Of a stretch of DNA of 64,000 nucleotides, positions 41,542-62,594 are shown in pieces. Under the pieces are notes generated by a model. That model saw only the letters and a list, made by a program, of their open reading frames with translations. It was not told the origin of the DNA and did not search any database. Position numbers and translations under genes: made by a program. How positions within the stretch are numbered: the first letter of the stretch is position 1; each line of letters opens with the position of its first letter. Location of the stretch: contig JAZJZS010000013.1 of assembly GCA_040389685.1 (NCBI GenBank), forward strand, positions 107 through 64,106, given 5' to 3'. The DNA is from Actinomycetota bacterium (GTDB taxonomy: Bacteria; Actinomycetota; Actinomycetes; Actinomycetales; Microbacteriaceae).

Positions 41542-41613
41542 TCCGCCTTAGTGTAACGGCAGCACGACAGCCTTTGGAGCTGTTCGGTCCAGGTTCGAAT
41601 CCTGGAGGCGGAG
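41542..41613 (+). tRNA. tRNA-Gln(UUG), CCA not encoded
   Basis: Acceptor TCCGCCT/AGGCGGA, anticodon arm ACAGC-CTTTGGA-GCTGT, T arm CCAGG-TTCGAAT-CCTGG. Confidence 0.96.
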
Positions 41614-41614
41614 C

Positions 41615-41698
41615 GGTCTCGATACGCGCGCGAGAGCGCGCTACTCGACCACCATCGATACGCGCGCGAGAGCGCGCTACTCGACCACCATCGATACG
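41615..41698 (-). repeat. Tandem pair of REP-family elements (36-bp period)
   Basis: Minus strand reads (TGGTGGTCGAGTAGCGCGCTCTCGCGCGCGTATCGA)x2 then GACC. Confidence 0.8.
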
Positions 41699-48306: not shown

Positions 48307-49773
48307 CTAGTGCGAGCTTCCCTCGGACTCGATCTCGGTGCGGTCGCCGCTCCACAGCGTGTGGAAGACCCCCGGCTTGTCGGTGCGCTTGTAGGTGTGT
48401 GCGCCGAAGAAGTCGCGCTGCCCCTGGGTGAGGGCGGCGGGCAGGCGGTCGGCACGGAGGCTGTCGTAGTAGGCGAGCGATGAGGCGAACACCGGCGCGG
48501 GGATGCCGACGTGCGCGGCATCCGCCACCACGTTGCGCCAGGAATCCTGGGCCTTCGCGACGACGTCGGTGAAGAACGGCGCGGTCACGAGGGAGACGAG
48601 TCCCGGGTCTGCCGCGTAGGCCTCGGTGATGCGGTTGAGGAAGCGGGCGCGGATGATGCAGCCACCCCGCCAGATCCGCGCGATCTCGCCCTTCTTGATG
48701 TCCCAGCCGTACTGCTCGGCTCCGGCGACGATCGCGTCGAAACCCTGACTGTAGGCGATCACTTTGGAGGCGTAGAGCGCCTGGCGCACTCCCTCGATGA
48801 AACCGTCGACGTCTTCGACCGGCTCTTGCGACGCGGATGCGGTTGGCCCGGGGAGCGCGGCGGCCGCGGCCCGCTGGGCCGGCTTCGACGACACGGAGCG
48901 GGCGAACACGGCCTCCGCGATGCCCGAGACGGGGATGCCGAGGTCGAGCGCGGTCTGAACGGTCCAGACGCCGGTGCCCTTCGATCCGGCCTGGTCGAGG
49001 ATGACATCGACGAGAGGCTTCCCTGTCGAAGCGTCGACCTGGCGAAGCACCTCGGCGGTGATCTCGATCAGGTAGCTCTCGAGCTCGCCCGTATTCCACT
49101 CGGCGAAGATGTCGGCGATCTCGGCGGCGGACTTGCCCGTGCCGCGGCGGATCAGGTCGTAGGCCTCGCCGATGAGCTGCATGTCGGCGTACTCGATGCC
49201 GTTGTGGATCATCTTGACGAAGTGTCCGGCGCCGTCGTGGCCGACGTGGGTGACGCAGGGTTCTCCGTCGACGACCGCGGCGATCGACTCGAGGATGGGG
49301 CCGAGGGTCGTCCACGCCTCATCAGACCCGCCGGGCATGATCGACGGGCCTTTGAGCGCACCCTCTTCGCCACCGGAGATGCCGGCGCCGACGAAGTTGA
49401 TCCCGGTCTCGCGCACGGCCTTCTCGCGGCGGATCGTGTCGGTGAAAAGGGCATTGCCGCCGTCGACGATGATGTCGCCGGGCTCGAAGACCTTGACGAG
49501 TTCGTCGATCACGGCATCCGTCCCGCGGCCAGCCTGAACCATGATGAGGGCGGCGCGGGGCTTGGTGAGTGAGGCGGCGAATTCGGCGTAGCTCGACGTG
49601 CCGATGAAGTTCGCTTCGGGATGCTCGGAGAGCAGGGTGTCGGTCTTCTCGTGGCTGCGGTTGAACACCGCGACGGTGTTCCCCTCGCGGCTCGCCAAGT
49701 TGCGGGCGAGGTTCGACCCCATGACGGCGAGCCCGACGACTCCGATGTTTGCCTGTGTGGTCTGATCAGTCAT
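48307..49773 (-). CDS. gndA: NADP-dependent 6-phosphogluconate dehydrogenase
   Basis: GLAVMGSNLARN, VFNRS, DGGN, SGGEEGALKGP, VKMIHNGIEY, WRGGCIIRA, QRDFFGAHTY. Confidence 0.97.
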   Translation of the reverse strand: MTDQTTQANIGVVGLAVMGSNLARNLASREGNTVAVFNRSHEKTDTLLSEHPEANFIGTSSYAEFAASLTKPRAALIMVQAGRGTDAVIDELVKVFEPGDIIVDGGNALFTDTIRREKAVRETGINFVGAGISGGEEGALKGPSIMPGGSDEAWTTLGPILESIAAVVDGEPCVTHVGHDGAGHFVKMIHNGIEYADMQLIGEAYDLIRRGTGKSAAEIADIFAEWNTGELESYLIEITAEVLRQVDASTGKPLVDVILDQAGSKGTGVWTVQTALDLGIPVSGIAEAVFARSVSSKPAQRAAAAALPGPTASASQEPVEDVDGFIEGVRQALYASKVIAYSQGFDAIVAGAEQYGWDIKKGEIARIWRGGCIIRARFLNRITEAYAADPGLVSLVTAPFFTDVVAKAQDSWRNVVADAAHVGIPAPVFASSLAYYDSLRADRLPAALTQGQRDFFGAHTYKRTDKPGVFHTLWSGDRTEIESEGSSH

Positions 49774-49854
49774 GTCTGTCTCCTGGATCTAGCCGCGGCG
49801 AAAAGTACCGTTCTCAGGGTAGTGCGTCCCCTGGGGCGGGTTACTGTGTGGGTC

Positions 49855-50355
49855 ATGACCGCTTCGCCCCTCCTCGTGGTCATGGGTGTCTCGGGCTCCG
49901 GCAAGACCACGGTCGGGATCGCGCTCGCCGCGGCGCTCGGTGTGCCGTTCCAGGATGCCGATGACCTGCATCCGGCCGCGAACGTCGCCAAGATGGCCGC
50001 GGGCATCGCACTCACCGACGCAGATCGGATGCCGTGGCTCGCCCTCGTCGGAGCGGAACTCGCCGCCGCTCCCGAGGGTCTGGTTATCGCGTGCTCTGCA
50101 CTCAAGCGGGTGTACCGTCAGGCGATTCTCGCGGCGGCGCCCTCCACCCGGTTCGTCTTCCTCGACGGCTCGCGGGAGCTGCTCGAGTCCCGAGTGCAGC
50201 ATCGTCGGGGGCACTTCATGCCGGCATCACTGCTCGCTTCGCAGCTTGCCGCACTCGAGCCCCTCGCTCGGGACGAGCCCGGAGAGCGGGTTTCACTGGA
50301 CGAGCATCCGACGGTGCCGTCGATCGTCGCGCTGCTGGTCCCGCTGGTCGAGTAG
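49855..50355 (+). CDS. gntK: Gluconokinase
   Basis: VMGVSGSGKT, DADDLHPAANVAKM, LTDADR.PW, CSALKR, HFMPASLLASQLAALE. Confidence 0.92.
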   Translation: MTASPLLVVMGVSGSGKTTVGIALAAALGVPFQDADDLHPAANVAKMAAGIALTDADRMPWLALVGAELAAAPEGLVIACSALKRVYRQAILAAAPSTRFVFLDGSRELLESRVQHRRGHFMPASLLASQLAALEPLARDEPGERVSLDEHPTVPSIVALLVPLVE

Positions 50356-50381
50356 GTCACTCTAACGACCGTATCGAGACC
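50342..50381 (+). repeat. REP-family element overlapping the gluconokinase stop
   Basis: CGCTGGTCGAGTAG-GTC..GAC-CGTATCGAGACC. Confidence 0.8.
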
Positions 50382-52145: not shown

Positions 52146-55100
52146 GTGATACTTTCGGGCTTGAATTCTGCTCTTTTGCGCGCCCCCACGTTCGAAAATG
52201 CTGTCACATGGGCGTCCCGCAGCACGGATTTCTCCCTCGTCGACGGCCTCCGTGCCCCGCTCCTGGCCTCACTGCTCGCCGCCCGCGCCGCGAAGACCGA
52301 CTCCCCGCAGGCCCTGCTCGCGATCGTCGCGACCGGCCGCGACTCCGAGTCGCTGCGGTCCGCCCTCGCTTGCGTGCTGCCCGGCGCCCAGGTCGTTGAG
52401 TTCCCCGCCTGGGAGACCCTCCCGCACGAGCGGCTGAGCCCCAGCGCCGAGACAGTGGGCAAACGCATCCATGCCCTGCGCATCATGCGGCGCTGGCAGG
52501 ATGCCCCGAGCGGCGACCTCGTGATCGTCGCGAGCGTGCGCGCCGCGCTCCAACCCCTCGCCGACAACCTCACGAGCATCGAGCCGCTCGCTCTCAGCGC
52601 GGGTGGTCGCGGTTACAACCTGGCGGGCATCAGCCGCCAGCTCGTCGACCTGGCGTATTCCCGGGTCGACATGGTGACCCGTCGAGGCGAATTCGCGGTG
52701 CGAGGCGGCATCCTTGACGTCTTTGCGCCGGTGGCCGAGCATCCGTGGCGCGTGGAGTTCTTCGGCGACGAGATCGAACAGATCCGCCAGTTTTCCGTTG
52801 CCGACCAGCGCTCGCTGGACGAGCCGATCCGTGTCGTGGAACTTCCGCCGAGCCGTGAACTGCTGCTGAGCGACGCCGTGAAGCAGCGCGCGCGGGAGAT
52901 GCAACACGAGTTTCCGAGCCTCGGCCAGATGCTCGCCAAGATCAGCGAGGGCATCCCGGTCGACGGCATGGAATCGCTCGCGCCCGCCCTCGCCGACCGG
53001 CTCGTGCCGCTCACCCACTACCTGCCGACGGATGCCGCGATCGCTGTACTCGCGCCGGAGCGGGTCGCGAGCCGGGCTGTGAGTCTCGTCGAGACCAACC
53101 GCGAGTTCCTCAGTGCGGCGTGGAATGCCGCGACGGCAGGCGCCGAAGCTCCGATCGACCTCGATTCGGGTGACTTCCTCAGTATCAACGCGCTGCGGGA
53201 TGCCGCAGGCTCACGCAACTGGTGGACGCTCAGCAGCTTCGACAGCGGCGCCACGGGTCTCGATACGGGCGCTGATCGCCCTACTCGACCAGCGGGCGAG
53301 ACCGCCACCTCAGAATTCCGCGACGGTGAGCATTACATCCGCATAGACGCGAACCCAGTGCCCACCTTTCAGGGCCGGGCCGACGGGGCGATCGACTACG
53401 TCGGCGACAAGCTGCGAGCAGGTTGGACAGTCGTCGTCGTCGCGGCCGGGCACGGCCTGGTCGAGCGTGCCGCGGAGGCCCTCGGCGAGCACGGCTTCGC
53501 GGCGCGCATGGTGGACGAGTTCCCGAAAACCCTGGAGACCGGAGTCGCGTACCTGCTGAAGGCATCCGTCGAGCACGGATTCGAGCTGCCCGAGATCGAC
53601 TTCGCGCTGCTGAGCGAGAGCGAGTTCTACGGTCGTGCCGCCGGTTACGACACCCGCCAGGTGAAGAAGCTCGCCAGCCGCCGCAAGAACGTAGTGGACC
53701 CGCTGCAGCTCAAGGCAGGCGACTTCGTGGTGCACGAGACCCACGGCATCGGGCGTTTCGCCGAACTGGTGCAACGCGAGGTGTCGACCGGCGGCAGGAA
53801 TCCCGTGAAGAACAACCGCGAATACCTGCTCGTCGAATACGCGCCCTCGAAGCGCGGCTATCCCAACGACAAGCTCTACGTTCCCACCGACCAGCTCGAC
53901 CTGCTCACCCGCTACGTCGGGGGAGAGGCTCCAGCGCTGAGCAAGATGGGCGGATCTGAATGGGCGGCCCAGAAGGGACGCGCCCGAAAGGCGGTACGAG
54001 ATATCGCCGTCGAGCTGGTCAAGCTCTACTCGGCGCGCATGGCGAGCCGCGGCCATGCCTTCCCGCCGGACACCCCCTGGCAGCAGGAACTCGAGGATGC
54101 CTTTCCGTTCGCGGAGACCCCCGACCAACTCACCACGATCGACGAGGTGAAGGCCGACATGGAGCGTCCGATACCGATGGATCGCCTCATCTCCGGAGAC
54201 GTGGGCTACGGCAAGACCGAGGTCGCCATCCGTGCCGCGTTCAAGGCCGTGCAGGATGGCAAGCAGGTGGTCATGCTCGTGCCGACGACCCTTCTGGTTA
54301 AGCAACACATGGAGACCTTCGCCGAGCGCTTCGCCGGCTTCCCCGTGCATCTGCGCGCCCTCAGTCGCTTCCAGACCGACAAGGAATCCAAGGAGACGAT
54401 CGAGGGCATGGCGGATGGCACGGTGGACGTCGTCATCGGCACCCACCGCCTGCTCAGCCCCGGCATCGTGCTCAAAGACCTCGGCCTCGTGATCATCGAC
54501 GAGGAACAGCGTTTCGGGGTCGAGCACAAAGACGCGCTGAAGAAGTTGAAGACCAACGTGGACATCCTCGCGATGAGTGCGACGCCGATCCCGCGCACGC
54601 TCGAGATGGCGGTGACCGGCATCCGCGAGATGTCGACGCTCGCGACACCTCCGGAGGACCGGCATCCGATCCTCACCTTCGTCGGTCCCTACAACGACAA
54701 GCAGGTCGGTGCCGCCATCCGGCGTGAATTGCTGCGTGAGGGCCAGATCTTCTTCGTGCACAACCGTGTGACGTCAATCAGCCGGGTCGCCGCCCAACTC
54801 GCCGAACTCGTGCCAGAGGCGCGCATCGCCGTGGCGCACGGGCAATTGCCCGAACACGTGCTCGAGCAGGTGATGGTCGACTTCTGGGAGCGCAAGTTCG
54901 ACGTGCTGGTTTCCACGACCATCATCGAGACCGGTCTCGACATCTCCAACGCGAACACCCTCATCATCGACCGGGCCGACAAGTACGGCCTCAGCCAGTT
55001 GCACCAGTTGCGCGGCCGGGTCGGTCGCGGACGTGAACGTGCCTACGCGTACTTCCTCTACGACGCCGACAAGCCCCTCGGTGAGGTCGCCCACGACCGT

Positions 55101-55784
55101 CTCGCCACGATCGCCGCGAACAACGAGCTCGGCGCCGGAATGCAGGTCGCGCTCAAGGACCTCGAGATCCGCGGAGCGGGCAACCTGCTCGGTGGCGAGC
55201 AGTCCGGGCACATCGCCGGGGTCGGTTTCGATCTGTACCTGCGCATGATCGGCGAAGCGGTGTCGACCTTCCGGGGGGAAGTCGCGGAGGGCCAGACCGA
55301 GCTGCGCCTCGAACTCCCCGTGGATGCCCACATCCCCGAGGAATACGTGGAGAGCGAGCGCTTGCGCCTCGAGGCCTACCAGAAGTTGTCGACGGCGTCA
55401 TCGCCCACGGCATCCGCCGACTCTATCGATCGGGTGCTCGAGGAGCTCACCGACCGCTACGGCGAACCGCCCGTTCAGGTGCAGAACCTCATCGCCGTCT
55501 CTCGGCTGCGACGGATGGCGCAGAAGGCCGGCCTCTCGGAGGTCGTGACCGCAGGCGGCAACCTTCGTGTCGCATCGATGGAGCTGCTCGACTCGATCCA
55601 GATCCGGCTGCAGCGCATGTTCCCGGGCGCGCGTTACTTCACCCAGACGCACTCGGTGTCGGTTCCCCTCCCGGTGCGCCAGGGCATCCCGCTGGCTGAT
55701 GCCGACCTCATCGAGTGGACCGGCCGGCTGCTGGTCGCCATCTTCGGTGCCGAGCTGAAGGTGGATGCCCCGGTGCCGGAGTAG
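52146..55784 (+). CDS. mfd: Transcription-repair coupling factor
   Basis: FPAWETLPHERLSP, RGEFAVRGGILDVF, VVHETHGIG, GDVGYGKTEVA, IIDEEQRFG, SATPIPRTL, QLRGRVGR, DLEIRGAGNLLG. Confidence 0.98.
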   Translation: MILSGLNSALLRAPTFENAVTWASRSTDFSLVDGLRAPLLASLLAARAAKTDSPQALLAIVATGRDSESLRSALACVLPGAQVVEFPAWETLPHERLSPSAETVGKRIHALRIMRRWQDAPSGDLVIVASVRAALQPLADNLTSIEPLALSAGGRGYNLAGISRQLVDLAYSRVDMVTRRGEFAVRGGILDVFAPVAEHPWRVEFFGDEIEQIRQFSVADQRSLDEPIRVVELPPSRELLLSDAVKQRAREMQHEFPSLGQMLAKISEGIPVDGMESLAPALADRLVPLTHYLPTDAAIAVLAPERVASRAVSLVETNREFLSAAWNAATAGAEAPIDLDSGDFLSINALRDAAGSRNWWTLSSFDSGATGLDTGADRPTRPAGETATSEFRDGEHYIRIDANPVPTFQGRADGAIDYVGDKLRAGWTVVVVAAGHGLVERAAEALGEHGFAARMVDEFPKTLETGVAYLLKASVEHGFELPEIDFALLSESEFYGRAAGYDTRQVKKLASRRKNVVDPLQLKAGDFVVHETHGIGRFAELVQREVSTGGRNPVKNNREYLLVEYAPSKRGYPNDKLYVPTDQLDLLTRYVGGEAPALSKMGGSEWAAQKGRARKAVRDIAVELVKLYSARMASRGHAFPPDTPWQQELEDAFPFAETPDQLTTIDEVKADMERPIPMDRLISGDVGYGKTEVAIRAAFKAVQDGKQVVMLVPTTLLVKQHMETFAERFAGFPVHLRALSRFQTDKESKETIEGMADGTVDVVIGTHRLLSPGIVLKDLGLVIIDEEQRFGVEHKDALKKLKTNVDILAMSATPIPRTLEMAVTGIREMSTLATPPEDRHPILTFVGPYNDKQVGAAIRRELLREGQIFFVHNRVTSISRVAAQLAELVPEARIAVAHGQLPEHVLEQVMVDFWERKFDVLVSTTIIETGLDISNANTLIIDRADKYGLSQLHQLRGRVGRGRERAYAYFLYDADKPLGEVAHDRLATIAANNELGAGMQVALKDLEIRGAGNLLGGEQSGHIAGVGFDLYLRMIGEAVSTFRGEVAEGQTELRLELPVDAHIPEEYVESERLRLEAYQKLSTASSPTASADSIDRVLEELTDRYGEPPVQVQNLIAVSRLRRMAQKAGLSEVVTAGGNLRVASMELLDSIQIRLQRMFPGARYFTQTHSVSVPLPVRQGIPLADADLIEWTGRLLVAIFGAELKVDAPVPE
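53256..53294 (-). repeat. Complete REP-family element in frame within mfd
   Basis: Minus strand CGCTGGTCGAGTAGGGCGATCAGCGCCCGTATCGAGACC (39 bp); encodes GLDTGADRPTRPA on the plus strand. Confidence 0.85.
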
Positions 55785-55933
55785 CCTCCCGCTGGTCGAG
55801 TCCCCGGTGCCCACCAGTTTTCAAGGTGCAATGGGATGAAGAAGCTCATGACAGCTCGCAAATTATGCATTATAAGGCTGGCAACTTTTACATAATGAGG
55901 CTGGCGGATATTGATTTGAAGTAGAGTCTGCGC

Positions 55934-57205
55934 ATGGACGTTATGTACGAACGCCGTGTTTTGCAGGTCGCTCGCAACCGTATGGTCGATGAATCTGTCG
56001 TACTTCTCGAAGGCCCGCGGTCAGTCGGTAAGTCCACTCTCTTGCGTCAACTCGCTGAAGCTCACTACGCAGAGGTCATCGACCTAGACGACATGGCTGT
56101 ACGCCAAGCTGTAGAAGCAAACCCGGTTCTGTTTGCGGCGGGTCCGTCGCCAGTGTGTTTCGACGAGTACCAAAAGTTCCCACCTGTTCTCGATGCGGTC
56201 AAAGCAGAGCTCAACAAAAGAGACGCTCCTGGCCGGTTCCTGCTGGCCGGTTCCACCCGCCACGATGCGCTCCCAATCACCGCACAGACGCTGACTGGGA
56301 GGCTGAATCGCCTTCCGGTGTATCCGCTTACCCAAACAGAGATCGAGGCAACGGGTGTCAATCTGGTTCAGACCATGTTCGAGGAGCCCGAGACGCTCAT
56401 CTGGCGGGAAACCTCAACCACCTCCCGCGAAGACTACATACGAAGAGTCGCCGATGGTGGTTTCCCAATCGCTTTAGCTCGCAGTTCGCGTGTGTCAAAG
56501 AACCGGTGGTTCGACGACTACACGAAGCTCACCTTGGAACGAGATGCCGCTGAGTTCGCGACGATCAAAAGAGCTAACCTCCTCCCTGCATTACTCGGAT
56601 CATTGGCTGGGCAGACGGCACAAGTTCTCAACATCGCGAAGGCGTCTGAGAAAGCGGGACTGGACATGAGGACTGGTGAGTCTTACCTCCGGCTCCTTGA
56701 ATCCGTTTTCCTTATTCAACGGATACCTGCGTGGCGGAGCACGCTAAGCAACAGGGCGACCTCCACCCCAAAATTGCATGTGGTCGACTCCGGCGTCGCC
56801 GCCAGGCTGCTGCAACTCACGCCGGAGAAGCTCGCTCACAGAGACCCGACGTCGCTCACCGAGTTCGGGCATCTCCTGGAAACGTTTGTGCTCGGAGAGT
56901 TGCAACGTCACGCATCCTGGCTGGATGGAATATCTAACGTCTCCCATTGGCGGACCAGGGACAACGACGAGGTTGACGTCGTCATCGAACGCGACGACGG
57001 CCGGGTAATCGCTTTCGAGGTCAAGACCGGCACCAACATCCCGAGCAAGGAACTAGCTCCAATGGTCAAACTGAGAAACAAACTTGGCGACCGGTTCCTC
57101 GCCGGCACGATTCTCTACACCGGCGGACTCAGCTACACGCCGCAAACCCGCATTCATGTGCTGCCAGTGGACAGGCTGTGGAGAAAGAGCACGAGTTCGG
57201 TTTGA
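55934..57205 (+). CDS. AAA+ ATPase with DUF4143 / PD-(D/E)xK C-terminus
   Basis: LEGPRSVGKST, FDEYQK, LAGS, PKLHVVDSGV, EVDVVIE...AFEVK; visibly lower GC than flanks. Confidence 0.88.
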   Translation: MDVMYERRVLQVARNRMVDESVVLLEGPRSVGKSTLLRQLAEAHYAEVIDLDDMAVRQAVEANPVLFAAGPSPVCFDEYQKFPPVLDAVKAELNKRDAPGRFLLAGSTRHDALPITAQTLTGRLNRLPVYPLTQTEIEATGVNLVQTMFEEPETLIWRETSTTSREDYIRRVADGGFPIALARSSRVSKNRWFDDYTKLTLERDAAEFATIKRANLLPALLGSLAGQTAQVLNIAKASEKAGLDMRTGESYLRLLESVFLIQRIPAWRSTLSNRATSTPKLHVVDSGVAARLLQLTPEKLAHRDPTSLTEFGHLLETFVLGELQRHASWLDGISNVSHWRTRDNDEVDVVIERDDGRVIAFEVKTGTNIPSKELAPMVKLRNKLGDRFLAGTILYTGGLSYTPQTRIHVLPVDRLWRKSTSSV

Positions 57206-57484
57206 ACTATCGAGTGGCCTGACAAAGCACAATCTCGGCTCAGAATCACTTTTCCATCTCACTGGAATCGTAAGGCTGACGACGCGCCGCACCGGCTGCG
57301 AAGCTCCGCTCCAGGGACCACGCAGCCACGATCGGCGCACCCGTCCGACCACCAGCACGGCGGCACCAACTCAACCCGCGATGCAATCCGGCGCCCCTCC
57401 TTCACAAGTTCTCCCGTGCCCGAACTCTCCCCATTCCGGCCCACGACGCGCGTAGCCGCCCGACTTCCCCACTACCGTCGCGGC

Positions 57485-57838
57485 ATGAACCCCCAACCCG
57501 AAGCCACAGCCGAAACTCAAACTGAACCCCTGGTCGGCGGCGAACCGGCCCGGCTCCTCGCGGATGCGATCCGCAGCTTTCCCGTCAGCCTCAGCCCCGG
57601 TGGCGCGCCCCGTCTGCACAACATCGCGACCGGCCAGACCCGCGCGATGATCCAGCGCGCCTATGAGCGCATCGAGATCGAGGTCATGGAGGACAGGGCC
57701 AACTGCAGTTGCCCGGGTGAGCACCGCACGCTGGACGTGCACGAGTACGAGTGGCTCATCTACAGCGACCTGATGTGGAAGGTGAAGGTGGCGCTCGGGG
57801 AGACCGGCAGGGTGGAGGCTCTGTGGTCGAGTCCCTGA
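57485..57838 (+). CDS. Hypothetical protein with CxC-x3-H motif
   Basis: ORF with TACCGT -10 6 nt before ATG; NCSCPGEH. Confidence 0.6.
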   Translation: MNPQPEATAETQTEPLVGGEPARLLADAIRSFPVSLSPGGAPRLHNIATGQTRAMIQRAYERIEIEVMEDRANCSCPGEHRTLDVHEYEWLIYSDLMWKVKVALGETGRVEALWSSP

Positions 57839-57876
57839 CGGTAGCCGAGAGCATCCCAAATCGGTACCATACTGGG

Positions 57877-58110
57877 ATGAGTAAACAGATCGCGGTACGA
57901 CTGCCCGATGACCTGGTGGACTTCCTCGACCAGTTGGTCGCAAGCGGCGAAGAGGCGAGCCGCGCATCCATTGTCACGCGTGCCCTGAAACGTGAAAGGC
58001 GCCGGCTCGGCGCGCTCAACGATGTCGAGATCCTCAAGCGCCTTGGCGAGGATCCCGAGCTGATCGGTTTCGCGGAATACGCCAGCCGCAATCGCCCGGA
58101 GCTCGACTAG
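57877..58110 (+). CDS. mazE: RHH antitoxin, MazE-type
   Basis: KQIAVRLPDDLVDFLD...SRASIVTRALKRERRR; closely resembles mycobacterial MazE3 as recalled; coupled to toxin. Confidence 0.85.
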   Translation: MSKQIAVRLPDDLVDFLDQLVASGEEASRASIVTRALKRERRRLGALNDVEILKRLGEDPELIGFAEYASRNRPELD

Positions 58111-58409
58111 TGCGGCCGATTCATCTGGCCGGAACCGACAAGCTTCGCCCGGTCGTGATCCTCACGCGGGAAGAAGTTCGACCGTATCTGACTTGGGTCA
58201 CCGTCGCGCCGATAACATCCACGAGTCGCGGATTACAGACGGAGGTCATTGTCGGCCCACGCAACGGTCTGGATCATGAATCGGTCGTATCGTGCGACAA
58301 CCTCGAGACGATTCGAGCGACGGAAATTGGCCGACAGATCGGATTCCTCCTCCCCTCGCAGGAGCTCGCCCTCACCGAGGCGCTGCACGCCGCCTTCGAC
58401 CTCGAATAG
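58110..58409 (+). CDS. mazF: MazF/PemK endoribonuclease toxin
   Basis: MRPIHLA..DK.RPVVILTRE.VRP.LT.VTVAPIT...RGL.TEV...NGL...SVVSCDN; closely resembles M. tuberculosis MazF3 (Rv1102c) as recalled. Confidence 0.9.
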   Translation: MRPIHLAGTDKLRPVVILTREEVRPYLTWVTVAPITSTSRGLQTEVIVGPRNGLDHESVVSCDNLETIRATEIGRQIGFLLPSQELALTEALHAAFDLE

Positions 58410-58503
58410 GTCCGGCTCTCCACACCACATCCGCCCGACACACACATCCACAGATCGCGCGATCGCCCACTGACGCCCACTGCTACCTCGCCACACTGGC
58501 CGC

Positions 58504-59625
58504 ATGACAGTGATACTTAAGGCAAACGGCCCGGCCGACCTGCTCGCGATGGCGCCGCCGATGGTGGGCTTCCTGCCGCGCAACAGCGTCGTACTCGTCG
58601 CGTTCCGCGGCAAGCGAACCTGTGGCGCGATGCGGTTCGACCTCCCGGCATCCGCCGATCGCATCGTGCACAAGCGCGTCGCGACCACAATCGTCGGCAT
58701 GTTCTGCAAACTGCCGGCGGTGGATGCCGCGCTGGTGATCGTCTACACCGATGACGAGTTCGGCGCCGGTGATGCCATTCCGCAGGCGGCTTTCGCCGAA
58801 GTGATCGGGCGGCGCCTGCAGCTCTCGGGCTTCGAGCTGCGCGAGTCGATCTGCCAGGCGGCGGATGGCTGGGCATCCTATTTCGATCGCGACGTGCCGG
58901 CTGGCGGTCACCCGCTGGCCGAGATCGCCGAGTCGGCAGTTGCCCGCGCGATCGAGGGCCAGCGCGGGCTGTTCCCTCAGCCATCGACGACCATCGATCG
59001 CGTCCCTCGCGCCGAGAAGTCGCAGCGATCGCGAATGTCGAAGAGGCTTGCCGCGTATGAGAAAGTCAGGCAGGGTATCCAGCGCAATCAGGGGGAGTGT
59101 CCGCCCACCGTGCTCGATGTGCTCGGGGACATCCCGCTCTTCGCTGAGGGCGCACTGGCCTGGGACGCTGCCGCGCTCGATGCGGACGGCGCGCTTTTGG
59201 TCTTCGCACTGCAGGGTCCGCCGTTGCGGGATCTGGTGATGCTGCAGTGGGCCTTCGGCCTGGAGCTGGGCGACCGGCTGTGGGAGGGGGATTTGCACGA
59301 CGATTCCCCCGACGGGGCAAATGCGGACTCTGCGGAGTTGCTCATGGGATTCGGGCCGCGCCCCGATCCGCAGCGCATCGAGGGTGCCATCGCGCTCATG
59401 CTCGAGCTGACGTCGCGCACCGAGGATGCGAAGCGGCCACCCCTGCTCTGTATGCTCGCGTGGCTCAACTGGGCGCTCGGTCACGGAACTCAGGCCGGGC
59501 TGCACCTCGACGAGGCCCTGGCCATCGCGCCCACCTATTCGATGGCACGACTGCTCGAATCGATGACCCGCACCGGCATCCTGCCCGAGTGGGCATTCGA
59601 GGGGCCGTCCTCGCTGGTCGAGTAG
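58504..59625 (+). CDS. DUF4192 family protein
   Basis: DLLAMAPPMVGFLPRNSVVLVAF, GAMRFDLP, LRDLVM, LAWLNWALG.G..A. Confidence 0.85.
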   Translation: MTVILKANGPADLLAMAPPMVGFLPRNSVVLVAFRGKRTCGAMRFDLPASADRIVHKRVATTIVGMFCKLPAVDAALVIVYTDDEFGAGDAIPQAAFAEVIGRRLQLSGFELRESICQAADGWASYFDRDVPAGGHPLAEIAESAVARAIEGQRGLFPQPSTTIDRVPRAEKSQRSRMSKRLAAYEKVRQGIQRNQGECPPTVLDVLGDIPLFAEGALAWDAAALDADGALLVFALQGPPLRDLVMLQWAFGLELGDRLWEGDLHDDSPDGANADSAELLMGFGPRPDPQRIEGAIALMLELTSRTEDAKRPPLLCMLAWLNWALGHGTQAGLHLDEALAIAPTYSMARLLESMTRTGILPEWAFEGPSSLVE

Positions 59626-59656
59626 TGCCTGACGAAGGAGGACGCGTATCGAGACC
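59612..59656 (+). repeat. REP-family element overlapping the DUF4192 stop
   Basis: CGCTGGTCGAGTAG...CGTATCGAGACC. Confidence 0.8.
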
Positions 59657-60297: not shown

Positions 60298-60376
60298 TTC
60301 GCGCAGCGTGTGCTGGTCGAGTAGCTCGCGCAGCTTGTGCTGGTCGAGTAGGTCGCGCAGCGACCGTATCGAGACC
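60287..60376 (+). repeat. Cluster of three REP-family units (two truncated, one complete)
   Basis: GGTCGACTAGTTCGCGCAGC, TGCTGGTCGAGTAGCTCGCGCAGC, TGCTGGTCGAGTAGGTCGCGCAGCGACCGTATCGAGACC. Confidence 0.82.
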
Positions 60377-62540: not shown

Positions 62541-62594
62541 GTTCGCGCAGCTCGTGCTGGTCGAGTAGGTCGCGCAGCGACCCTATCGATACCG
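62533..62594 (+). repeat. REP-family pair (truncated plus complete)
   Basis: GACCGACTAGTTCGCGCAGC-TCGTGCTGGTCGAGTAGGTCGCGCAGCGACCCTATCGATACC. Confidence 0.78.

What the first reader, a model, noticed from the sequence alone, without database searches (positions are those of the whole stretch)
53256..53294. A complete REP element translated as 13 codons inside Mfd
The 39-bp stretch is the reverse complement of the REP seen at 50342, 59612 and 60335 (CGCTGGTCGAGTAG-stem-GTATCGAGACC), with its own intact GGGCG/CGCCC stem. It starts on a codon boundary and encodes GLDTGADRPTRPA in a low-complexity segment that looks like an interdomain linker. This parallels Rickettsia palindromic elements that add peptides to proteins, here in a core DNA-repair gene.
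Basis: seen in the sequence. Interest (0 to 1): 0.62.

Follow-up and report, generated by a model that had tools for sequence, protein, structure and literature searches.

The report
REP hairpin repeat translated inside Mfd
A 42-base copy of a small hairpin repeat that normally sits between genes lies in frame in a floppy linker of the DNA-repair protein Mfd and adds 14 residues; this kind of event is already described, but related bacteria carry their own copies at the same spot.

Summary
Window 53256-53294 is an exact reverse-strand copy of a GTAG-tagged REP family, GCTGGTCGA-GTAG-[variable hairpin]-CGTATCGAGACC. The window holds at least 7 copies, against 0.02 expected by chance.

- **Position:** the copy is read as codons 371-383 of an intact 1212-residue Mfd.
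- **Size:** against empty-site orthologues the insert is 42 bp, or 14 residues (53256-53297).
- **Structure:** it lies in a hypervariable, low-confidence coil (pLDDT below 50) between the UvrB-like module and D3.
- **Not an artefact:** an independent assembly of the source run and a contig from a second study both span it.
- **Relatives:** four of the six closest relatives have no REP there and one only a possible relic. The closest one has a REP in the opposite orientation. More distant Microbacteriaceae have single or paired copies at the same linker, each matching its own genome's REP variant.
- **Other genes:** in a census of 147 copies from metagenome contigs, the family also sits in frame in GcvP and IleS.

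In-frame REPs in repair genes are published (Di Nocera 2013) and resemble Rickettsia RPEs, so this is a new member of a known kind. New here are the phylum, the host gene and the recurrence at one linker.

The parts
53256..53297 (-). REP copy. The element's own head-to-tail orientation is on the minus strand. It is read on the plus strand as Mfd residues 371-384, GLDTGADRPTRPAG. The core 53256-53294 matches the consensus arms exactly; the inner stem is GGGCG/CGCCC.
52146..55784 (+). mfd (transcription-repair coupling factor), 1212 residues, intact with all domains
53298..53303 (+). GAGACC (Glu-Thr) directly after the insert. It is conserved in all 7 members of the window's clade and is identical to the last 6 bases of the REP tail. 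It may be a relic of an older forward-oriented REP (inference).
53247..53334 (+). Hypervariable Mfd linker (about residues 368-396) between the strand WWTLS (359-363) and the strand YIR (397-399). Its length ranges from 9 to 68 residues across 120 orthologue clusters, and the model's pLDDT is below 50.
55788..55803 (+). REP head relic, CCCGCTGGTCGAGTCC, 4 bases after the Mfd stop codon. In relatives L082, L083 and L085 the REP's own TAG is the Mfd stop codon.
50342..50381 (+). Intergenic REP copy. Its TAG is the stop codon of the AAA_33/SKI kinase ORF 49621..50355.
59612..59656 (+). REP copy. Its TAG is the stop codon of the DUF4192 ORF 58504..59625.
60311..60376 (+). REP with a duplicated head, downstream of the PIN-domain gene
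62557..62593 (+). REP copy with a degenerate tail (CCTATCGATACC)
41615..41690 (-). Tandem REP pair that begins one base after tRNA-Gln (41542-41614)

Best explanation
A copy of this genome's own GTAG-tagged REP is lodged in frame in mfd. The REP is a 35-43 nt imperfect hairpin repeat that is mostly intergenic and often supplies TAG stop codons.

Shown:
- The copy sits on the strand opposite to its GTAG/TAG, so no frame holds a stop, and its length of 42 bp keeps the reading frame.
- It lies in a disordered, length-variable linker between the N-terminal UvrB-homology module (D1a-D2-D1b) and D3.
- Mfd is otherwise intact and is translated through the repeat, gaining 14 residues (GLDTGADRPTRPAG).

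Inferred:
- The copy arrived, or was last overwritten, recently in this species' lineage. The process would be the one that spreads REPs: probably hairpin-directed single-strand transposition by a RAYT-type HUH/Y1 enzyme, or gene conversion from other copies.
- It persists because a longer floppy linker is close to neutral for Mfd.
- The linker has taken REPs repeatedly in this branch of Microbacteriaceae. The conserved GAGACC beside the insert is probably the stump of an earlier copy, and a resident copy or stump may itself attract new ones.
For: Identity as a REP: exact arms; covariance-model score 47.7 bits, E 5e-10, from a model built without any Mfd copy. Compensatory changes support both stems: pair 2-42 GC/AU, pair 4-40 CG/UA, pair 11-31 CG/GC, with 0 of 500 shuffles reaching the observed covariation score.

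A live subfamily: about 28 other contigs of the source metagenome, at the same 15-20x depth, match only 53254-53296.

Empty against filled site: L081 reads ...GCGACA|GAGACCGCC...; the window reads ...GCCACG|42 bp|GAGACCGCC....

Tree: the window sits in a 7-row clade with 100/100 support. In that clade L081, L082, L084 and L086 have no REP at the site, L083 has a possible relic, and L085 (95% identical Mfd) has a REP in the opposite orientation.

Other lineages: L087, L022 and L089 hold two copies each and L002, L091 and L032 one each. Where scored strongly, the copy carries its own genome's arm variant (GGTT..AACC, GATT..AATC).

Linker character: pLDDT below 50 at 373-386 and 388-394, model TM 0.74 to M. 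smegmatis Mfd. Linker length is 9-68 residues across 120 orthologue clusters.

Placement: among 47 model hits in 1.8 Mb (those with E below 0.05 that I checked for placement), the only ones deep inside a GC3-supported ORF are the 12 in Mfd linkers.

Precedent: intragenic REPs in repair genes, argued to be neutral in flexible linkers (PMC3733652).
Against: - The mobilisation mechanism is therefore inference.
- A fresh insertion is not cleanly separated from retention or renewal of an older copy. The GAGACC stump and the paired copies in L087 and L022 fit an ancestral REP doublet.
- Neutrality is inferred only from disorder and length variation. There are no expression, proteomic or phenotype data.
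- Predicted hairpin stability is not above dinucleotide shuffles in this GC-rich context (z -0.3 to -0.6).
- Four of the nine loci with linker copies (L085, L087, L089, L091) were fetched because their peptides already looked REP-like, so the recurrence rate from that set is biased upward.
Confidence: 0.85

Rival explanations
1. The copy is not a new insertion. It is the surviving half of an ancient REP doublet that entered the linker in an ancestor of this Microbacteriaceae branch. The doublet was then variously lost, halved or overwritten by gene conversion in the descendants.
For: - GAGACC, the REP tail end, is conserved at the right edge of the linker in all 7 clade members.
- L087 and L022 carry a reverse-plus-forward doublet whose left half reads GLDT...TRPAG, as in the window, and whose right half ends RIET.
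- L085 keeps only a forward copy, and L086 and L083 show possible relics.
- REPs lie in this linker across a 19-row clade.
Against: - The window copy's arms are exact consensus, while the neighbouring linker DNA has diverged strongly.
- Its inner stem belongs to a subfamily with at least 25 near-identical copies in the same genome bin. The inner stems of the L087 and L022 copies are unrelated.
- Four of the six closest relatives have nothing there beyond GAGACC.
Confidence: 0.25
2. The in-gene REP is kept because it does something. It could act as an RNA or DNA element inside mfd (an mRNA processing or stability site, a pause site, or a binding site for gyrase, IHF or a RAYT). Alternatively, the longer linker could tune Mfd.
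For: - Recurrence at one site in many lineages.
- Stems kept by compensatory change across the family.
- REPs are known to act as RNA and DNA elements elsewhere, as reviewed in PMC3733652.
Against: - Presence, number, orientation and frame all differ between close relatives, and several relatives have none.
- The hairpin is no more stable than shuffles and has no U-tract.
- The peptide is not conserved.
- Other linker copies (L085, L091, L032, L090) are visibly decaying.
Confidence: 0.1
3. Chance resemblance or an assembly artefact: a repeat wrongly joined into mfd in a metagenome-assembled contig.
For: The window probably comes from a metagenome assembly. The best holder is a watershed metagenome. 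Repeats can mislead assemblers.
Against: - 0 of 100 shuffles give even one match.
- The reading frame and all Mfd domains are intact.
- An independent Logan contig is identical over 801 bases, and a contig from another study spans both junctions.
Confidence: 0.01

Closest known systems
Intragenic GTAG-tagged REPs (Di Nocera, De Gregorio & Rocco 2013, BMC Genomics 14:522, PMC3733652)
   Same: - A GTAG tetranucleotide is followed by a variable palindrome.
- Copies are mostly intergenic and lie downstream of ORFs.
- The TAG often supplies the stop codon.
- Occasional copies lie wholly inside ORFs and are read as 10-30 extra residues, notably in replication and excision-repair genes.
- The authors propose that such inserts are neutral in flexible linkers.
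   Different: - That survey lists GTAG REPs in Proteobacteria, Cyanobacteria, Chloroflexi and the PVC group. It has no Actinobacteria, and Mfd appears in neither its text nor its held supplements.
- The element here has extra conserved flanks (GCTGGTCGA and CGTATCGAGACC). These form an outer stem around tandem G.A mismatches.
- Here the same linker is occupied in many related lineages.
Rickettsia palindromic elements (RPE; Ogata et al. 2000, as cited in PMC3733652 and PMC10969869)
   Same: Palindromic repeats are inserted in frame in housekeeping genes. They are translated as extra surface peptides without destroying the protein.
   Different: - RPEs are Rickettsia families, and RPE-1 is a longer palindromic insertion (PMC3733652).
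- RPE-4 and RPE-6 are CGTC-tagged, not GTAG-tagged (PMC3733652).
- They share no sequence relationship with this element and occur in a different phylum, in reduced intracellular genomes.
REPIN/RAYT systems (Bertels & Rainey 2011, PMC3116915; Nunvar 2010)
   Same: GTAG-type hairpin repeats form within-genome populations with subfamilies. Inverted doublets occur in the Mfd linkers of L087, L022 and L089 and in GcvP of L105.
   Different: The window's Mfd copy is a singlet. No RAYT gene has been shown for this genome or any Microbacteriaceae, and it could not be searched for here.
Mfd of mycobacteria (PDB 6AC6, 6AC8, 6ACX, 6ACA)
   Same: Same domain order and fold. The N-terminal 520 residues of the model superpose at TM 0.74.
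   Different: In M. smegmatis the segment after WWTLS is only a few residues (WWTLSQLSDESAVELDIR). Here it is about 30 residues, 14 of them encoded by the REP.

Membership tests
GTAG-tagged REP superfamily | Unpaired GTAG directly 5' of a short palindromic stem-loop | tested here: met
   All copies read ...GTCGA-GTAG-[stem-loop]...; G10 of GTAG may pair with C32.
GTAG-tagged REP superfamily | Multi-copy, dispersed, mainly intergenic and downstream of ORFs | tested here: met
   7 copies in 64 kb against 0.02 by chance. About 28 further contigs in the source metagenome match the copy. There are 147 exact-arm copies in 120 metagenome contigs, only 2 loci of which are truly intragenic.
GTAG-tagged REP superfamily | Stem kept by compensatory changes while its sequence varies | tested here: met
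   89% of cells paired against 77% in shuffles. 33 cells have changes on both sides against 11.7 expected. 0 of 500 shuffles reach the covariation score, and slid controls give 17-46% pairing.
GTAG-tagged REP superfamily | The TAG of the tag serves as stop codon of the upstream ORF | tested here: met
   Window ORFs 49621..50355 and 58504..59625 end on the REP's TAG. So does Mfd itself in L082, L083 and L085.
GTAG-tagged REP superfamily | A cognate RAYT (HUH/Y1 transposase) gene flanked by REPs in the genome | not testable with these tools
The 64-kb window was not scanned exhaustively. No paper linking RAYTs to Actinobacteria was found.
Rickettsia palindromic elements (RPE) | Membership of one of the Rickettsia RPE sequence families; those that are REP-like are CGTC-tagged | tested here: not met
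   The tag here is GTAG, the unit is 42 bp and the host is an actinobacterium. RPE properties are taken from PMC3733652. It works like an RPE but is not one.
REPIN (inverted REP doublet) | Two REPs in inverted orientation separated by a short spacer | tested here: not met
   The window's linker holds one copy plus a 6-base stump. Doublets do occur in the Mfd linkers of L087, L022 and L089 and in GcvP of L105.
Mfd / TRCF | UvrB-homology module, RNAP-interacting domain, SF2 translocase and C-terminal TRCF domain in order | tested here: met
   Pfam finds UvrB_inter, CarD_TRCF_RID, DEAD, Helicase_C and TRCF. The PDB match to M. smegmatis and M. tuberculosis Mfd has E = 0.

The most novel reading that the evidence does not exclude
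The D1b-D3 linker of Mfd may be a heritable landing pad for hairpin repeats. Once a REP, or even its GAGACC stump, sits there, the REP-mobilising machinery keeps recognising it. It then overwrites, flips or doubles the copy from other copies in the genome, so each lineage shows its own current REP variant at the same spot.

Earlier unchecked notes of this scan describe in-frame palindromic repeats of unrelated families inside mfd in at least seven other genomes of several phyla. Together with those, this would make mfd a preferred host gene for such repeats across bacteria. That would hint at a link between Mfd's gene or function and hairpin-repeat biology, rather than mere tolerance of a floppy linker.
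Probability: 0.25. Interest if true: 0.7.

Novelty: new member of a known kind. Interest (0 to 1): 0.42.

Why it matters
It extends a published but little-studied phenomenon, REP hairpins translated inside repair proteins, in two ways. The phylum (Actinomycetota, Microbacteriaceae) and the gene (mfd) are both absent from the reference survey.

It also gives a clean natural series at one linker: an empty site, a single copy in either orientation, doublets and decayed relics. Such a series is useful for working out how REPs move and decay, and for showing that this Mfd linker tolerates arbitrary length.

For annotation, it warns that low-complexity peptides such as GLDT..TRPA, LVE..RIET and LVELVET in Microbacteriaceae proteins are repeat-derived.

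If the recurrence reflects targeting rather than tolerance, mfd would become a test bed for REP homing.

Tried and rejected
- **L078:** this locus (97% amino-acid identity on the Mfd C-terminus) looked like a near-identical relative. It is only 88% identical in DNA, lacks the linker part and differs downstream, so it was of no use for the empty-site test.
- **First anchors:** my first regular-expression anchors missed most linkers. I replaced them with tblastn plus MAFFT.
- **Three-residue arm peptides:** these are too unspecific, at 0.0072 per residue in the linker against 0.0046 elsewhere. Four-residue motifs are dominated outside the linker by two native Mfd motifs, SLVETN and GLVERA. The figure of 18 of 119 orthologue clusters with REP-like peptides is therefore soft.
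- **Folding energies:** the REPs do not stand out from dinucleotide shuffles except for the copy at 60342. I rest the hairpin claim on covariation instead.
- **Metagenome census:** the scan contained no mfd gene at all. It says nothing on mfd enrichment; it only shows that the family also sits in frame in gcvP and ileS. Two further internal hits there were rejected: L126 lies upstream of the real start, and L188 is a spurious antisense ORF.
- **Literature:** searches for REP or RAYT families in Actinobacteria returned nothing relevant.
- **Not done:** I did not scan all window ORFs for a Y1 transposase.

Full report
**What is there**

Window 53256-53294 reads GGTCTCGATACGGGCGCTGATCGCCCTACTCGACCAGCG. 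It starts at codon 371 of the 1212-codon ORF 52146..55784 and encodes GLDTGADRPTRPA. The ORF is a complete Mfd, with UvrB_inter, CarD_TRCF_RID, DEAD, Helicase_C and TRCF domains. Its best PDB matches are M. smegmatis and M. tuberculosis Mfd.

**The repeat family**

The reverse complement of the stretch carries both conserved arms of a repeat that also lies at 50342-50381 and 59612-59656. That is three exact two-arm matches against none in 100 shuffles. Further copies lie at:
- 60311-60376, with a duplicated head;
- 62557-62593, with a degenerate tail;
- 41615-41690, a tandem pair that starts one base after tRNA-Gln.

A relaxed pattern gives 7 copies against 0.02 per shuffled window.

The unit is GCTGGTCGA-GTAG-[variable GC-rich hairpin of 11-19 nt]-CGTATCGAGACC. 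On an alignment of 23 intergenic copies from the window and five relatives, both stems are supported by changes on both sides:
- the outer stem GGTC..GACC, which spans a tandem G.A;
- the inner stem.

The supporting pairs are 2-42 (GC to AU), 4-40 (CG to UA) and 11-31 (CG to GC). None of 500 shuffles reaches the covariation score, and slid controls collapse to 17-46% pairing.

The TAG of the tag is the stop codon of two window genes, an AAA_33/SKI kinase and DUF4192. It is also the stop codon of Mfd itself in three relatives. This is the anatomy of the GTAG-tagged REPs of Di Nocera et al. 2013 (PMC3733652).

**Is the Mfd copy real, and is it an insertion?**

A covariance model built without any Mfd copy scores it at 47.7 bits, E 5e-10.

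Contigs of the source metagenome assembled independently by Logan reproduce 52900-53700 without a difference. A 198-nt contig from a different study spans both junctions with two differences, one of which restores the subfamily's consensus G at 53276. About 28 other contigs at the same depth match only 53254-53296, so this inner-stem subfamily is abundant in the same organism.

At the DNA level the short-linker relative L081 reads ...GGTGCGACA|GAGACCGCC..., and the window reads ...GGCGCCACG|42 bp|GAGACCGCC....

In an Mfd tree made without the linker, the window falls in a fully supported clade of seven:
- L081, L082, L084 and L086 have no REP at the site.
- L083 has a possible relic.
- L085 (Lacisediminihabitans sp. 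H27-G8, 95% identical) has a REP in the opposite orientation a few bases away, read as PAGRAASASERIET.

They do not.

**Where in the protein**

Across 120 orthologue clusters the segment between FDSG and HYIRI varies from 9 to 68 residues. Some Microbacteriaceae have almost nothing there, for example L003 with FDSGAE-PEDGYVRL.

The phmmer alignment to M. smegmatis Mfd breaks exactly there, at query 375/424.

An AlphaFold2 model of residues 1-520, made with 77 sequences, has mean pLDDT 82 and superposes on mycobacterial Mfd at TM 0.74. Its pLDDT is below 50 at 373-386 and 388-394, a coil between the strands at 359-363 and 397-399. By the domain scheme of E. coli Mfd (Deaconescu et al. 2006, from my own knowledge), this is the junction between D1b and D3.

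**Recurrence**

The same linker holds REPs in other lineages:
- **L087 and L022** (Terrimesophilobacter): a reverse-plus-forward doublet.
- **L089:** a forward-plus-reverse doublet.
- **L002** (Galbitalea): one copy in the window's orientation and frame.
- **L091:** one decayed copy.
- **L090:** one decayed copy seen by eye only; it gave no model hit.
- **L088:** a stemless GGTCGAGCTGGTCGAGACC, read as LVELVET.
- **L032:** a distant Actinomycetota genome with a weak copy.

Where they score strongly, the copies carry the arm variant of their own genome, GGTT..AACC or GATT..AATC.

Of the 47 model hits in 1.8 Mb that I checked for placement (those with E below 0.05), 12 lie in Mfd linkers of 9 loci. 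No other hit lies deep inside a GC3-supported ORF.

There is a caveat. L085, L087, L089 and L091 were fetched because their peptides looked REP-like. In the unbiased GTDB set (L001-L080), five loci show the family at E below 1e-4, and two of them (three with the weak L032 hit) have a linker copy. About 18 of 119 orthologue clusters show arm-like four-residue motifs in the linker, which is a soft count.

All seven members of the window's clade keep GAGACC, the last six bases of the REP tail, at the right edge of the linker. I read this as the stump of an older forward copy.

**Other genes**

As a substitute for the closed genome tools, I scanned metagenome contigs for exact-arm copies. The scan returned 147 copies in 120 contigs. 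Two loci are truly intragenic:
- a forward-plus-reverse doublet in glycine dehydrogenase GcvP (L105);
- a single copy between the catalytic and anticodon-binding domains of IleS (L158).

None of these contigs holds mfd. In-frame lodging is therefore a general but rare fate of this family, about 1-2% of copies, while mfd is hit in a large share of REP-bearing lineages.

**Mechanism**

Shown:
- a family member sits in frame with no stop in the reading frame;
- it lies in a disordered linker of an otherwise intact Mfd;
- it is present in two samples and absent from sister lineages.

Inferred:
- The copy arrived, or was renewed, by the REP-spreading process, either RAYT-type single-strand transposition or gene conversion.
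- It is tolerated as a neutral linker extension.
- Resident copies or stumps may attract new ones.

Against a function: the hairpin is no more stable than shuffles and has no U-tract. Presence, number, orientation and frame also vary between close relatives.

**Comparison and novelty**

Di Nocera et al. 2013 already report four things: GTAG REPs that donate TAG stops, REPs inside ORFs, a striking share of these in uvrA, uvrB, uvrD, recBCD, polA and dnaE, and the suggestion that linker copies are neutral. Their survey has no Actinobacteria, and Mfd appears in neither the text nor the held supplements. RPEs are an analogy, not a family match.

This is a new member of a known kind, with the added point of recurrent occupation of one linker.

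Earlier notes of this scan (unchecked) describe the same REP family in this window. They also describe in-frame palindromic repeats of other families inside mfd in at least seven other genomes. I could not test those, but they raise the possibility that mfd is a general hotspot.

**Limits**

- There are no expression or protein data.

Noticed in passing
window 55782-55803; L082 6014-6023; L083 9615-9624; L085 9642-9651; L091 9631-9640: The 3' end of mfd is also tied to REPs. In L082, L083 and L085 the TAG of a REP head is the Mfd stop codon. In L091 the TGA inside the GGTTGAGTAG variant is the stop. In the window the stop is followed after 4 bases by a REP head relic, CCCGCTGGTCGAGTCC.
   Followed up: partly
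window 53298-53303 and the same place in L081-L086: GAGACC (Glu-Thr) at the right edge of the linker is conserved in all seven clade members and equals the end of the REP tail. It is possibly the stump of an older forward REP.
   Followed up: partly
L105 8290-8363 (GcvP) and L158 1750-1784 (IleS): The same REP family lies in frame in glycine dehydrogenase as a forward-plus-reverse doublet (RWSSSGEAAYRDPADGFDTPSATQPA). It also lies in isoleucyl-tRNA synthetase between the catalytic and anticodon-binding domains (GGRVAAEGGVSRP).
   Followed up: partly
window 41542-41690: A tandem REP pair starts one base after the 3' end of tRNA-Gln (41542-41614), in reverse orientation relative to the tRNA.
   Followed up: no
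window 55800-58480 against L082, L083 and L084: Between mfd and the DUF4192 gene the window holds an AAA_14/DUF4143 ATPase gene (55934..57205), preceded by an AT-rich stretch (about 55820-55930). Relatives have small genes and a PemK toxin there instead. This is a variable islet just downstream of mfd.
   Followed up: no
L002 4987-5175; L091 14863-15027: REP arrays. L002 has three identical copies at a 72-73 nt period. L091 has four copies in alternating orientation within 165 nt.
   Followed up: no
Mfd linkers of L088, P0047, P0049 and P0050: A stemless form, GGTCGAG-CTG-GTCGAGACC, is read as LVELVET. It suggests that REPs can collapse to their two arms and persist as a short peptide motif.
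   Followed up: no
window 53276: The loop base T in the window's Mfd copy is G in most other copies of the subfamily. It is also G in the Mfd copy of a second sample (X4). This looks like a point change after insertion.
   Followed up: partly
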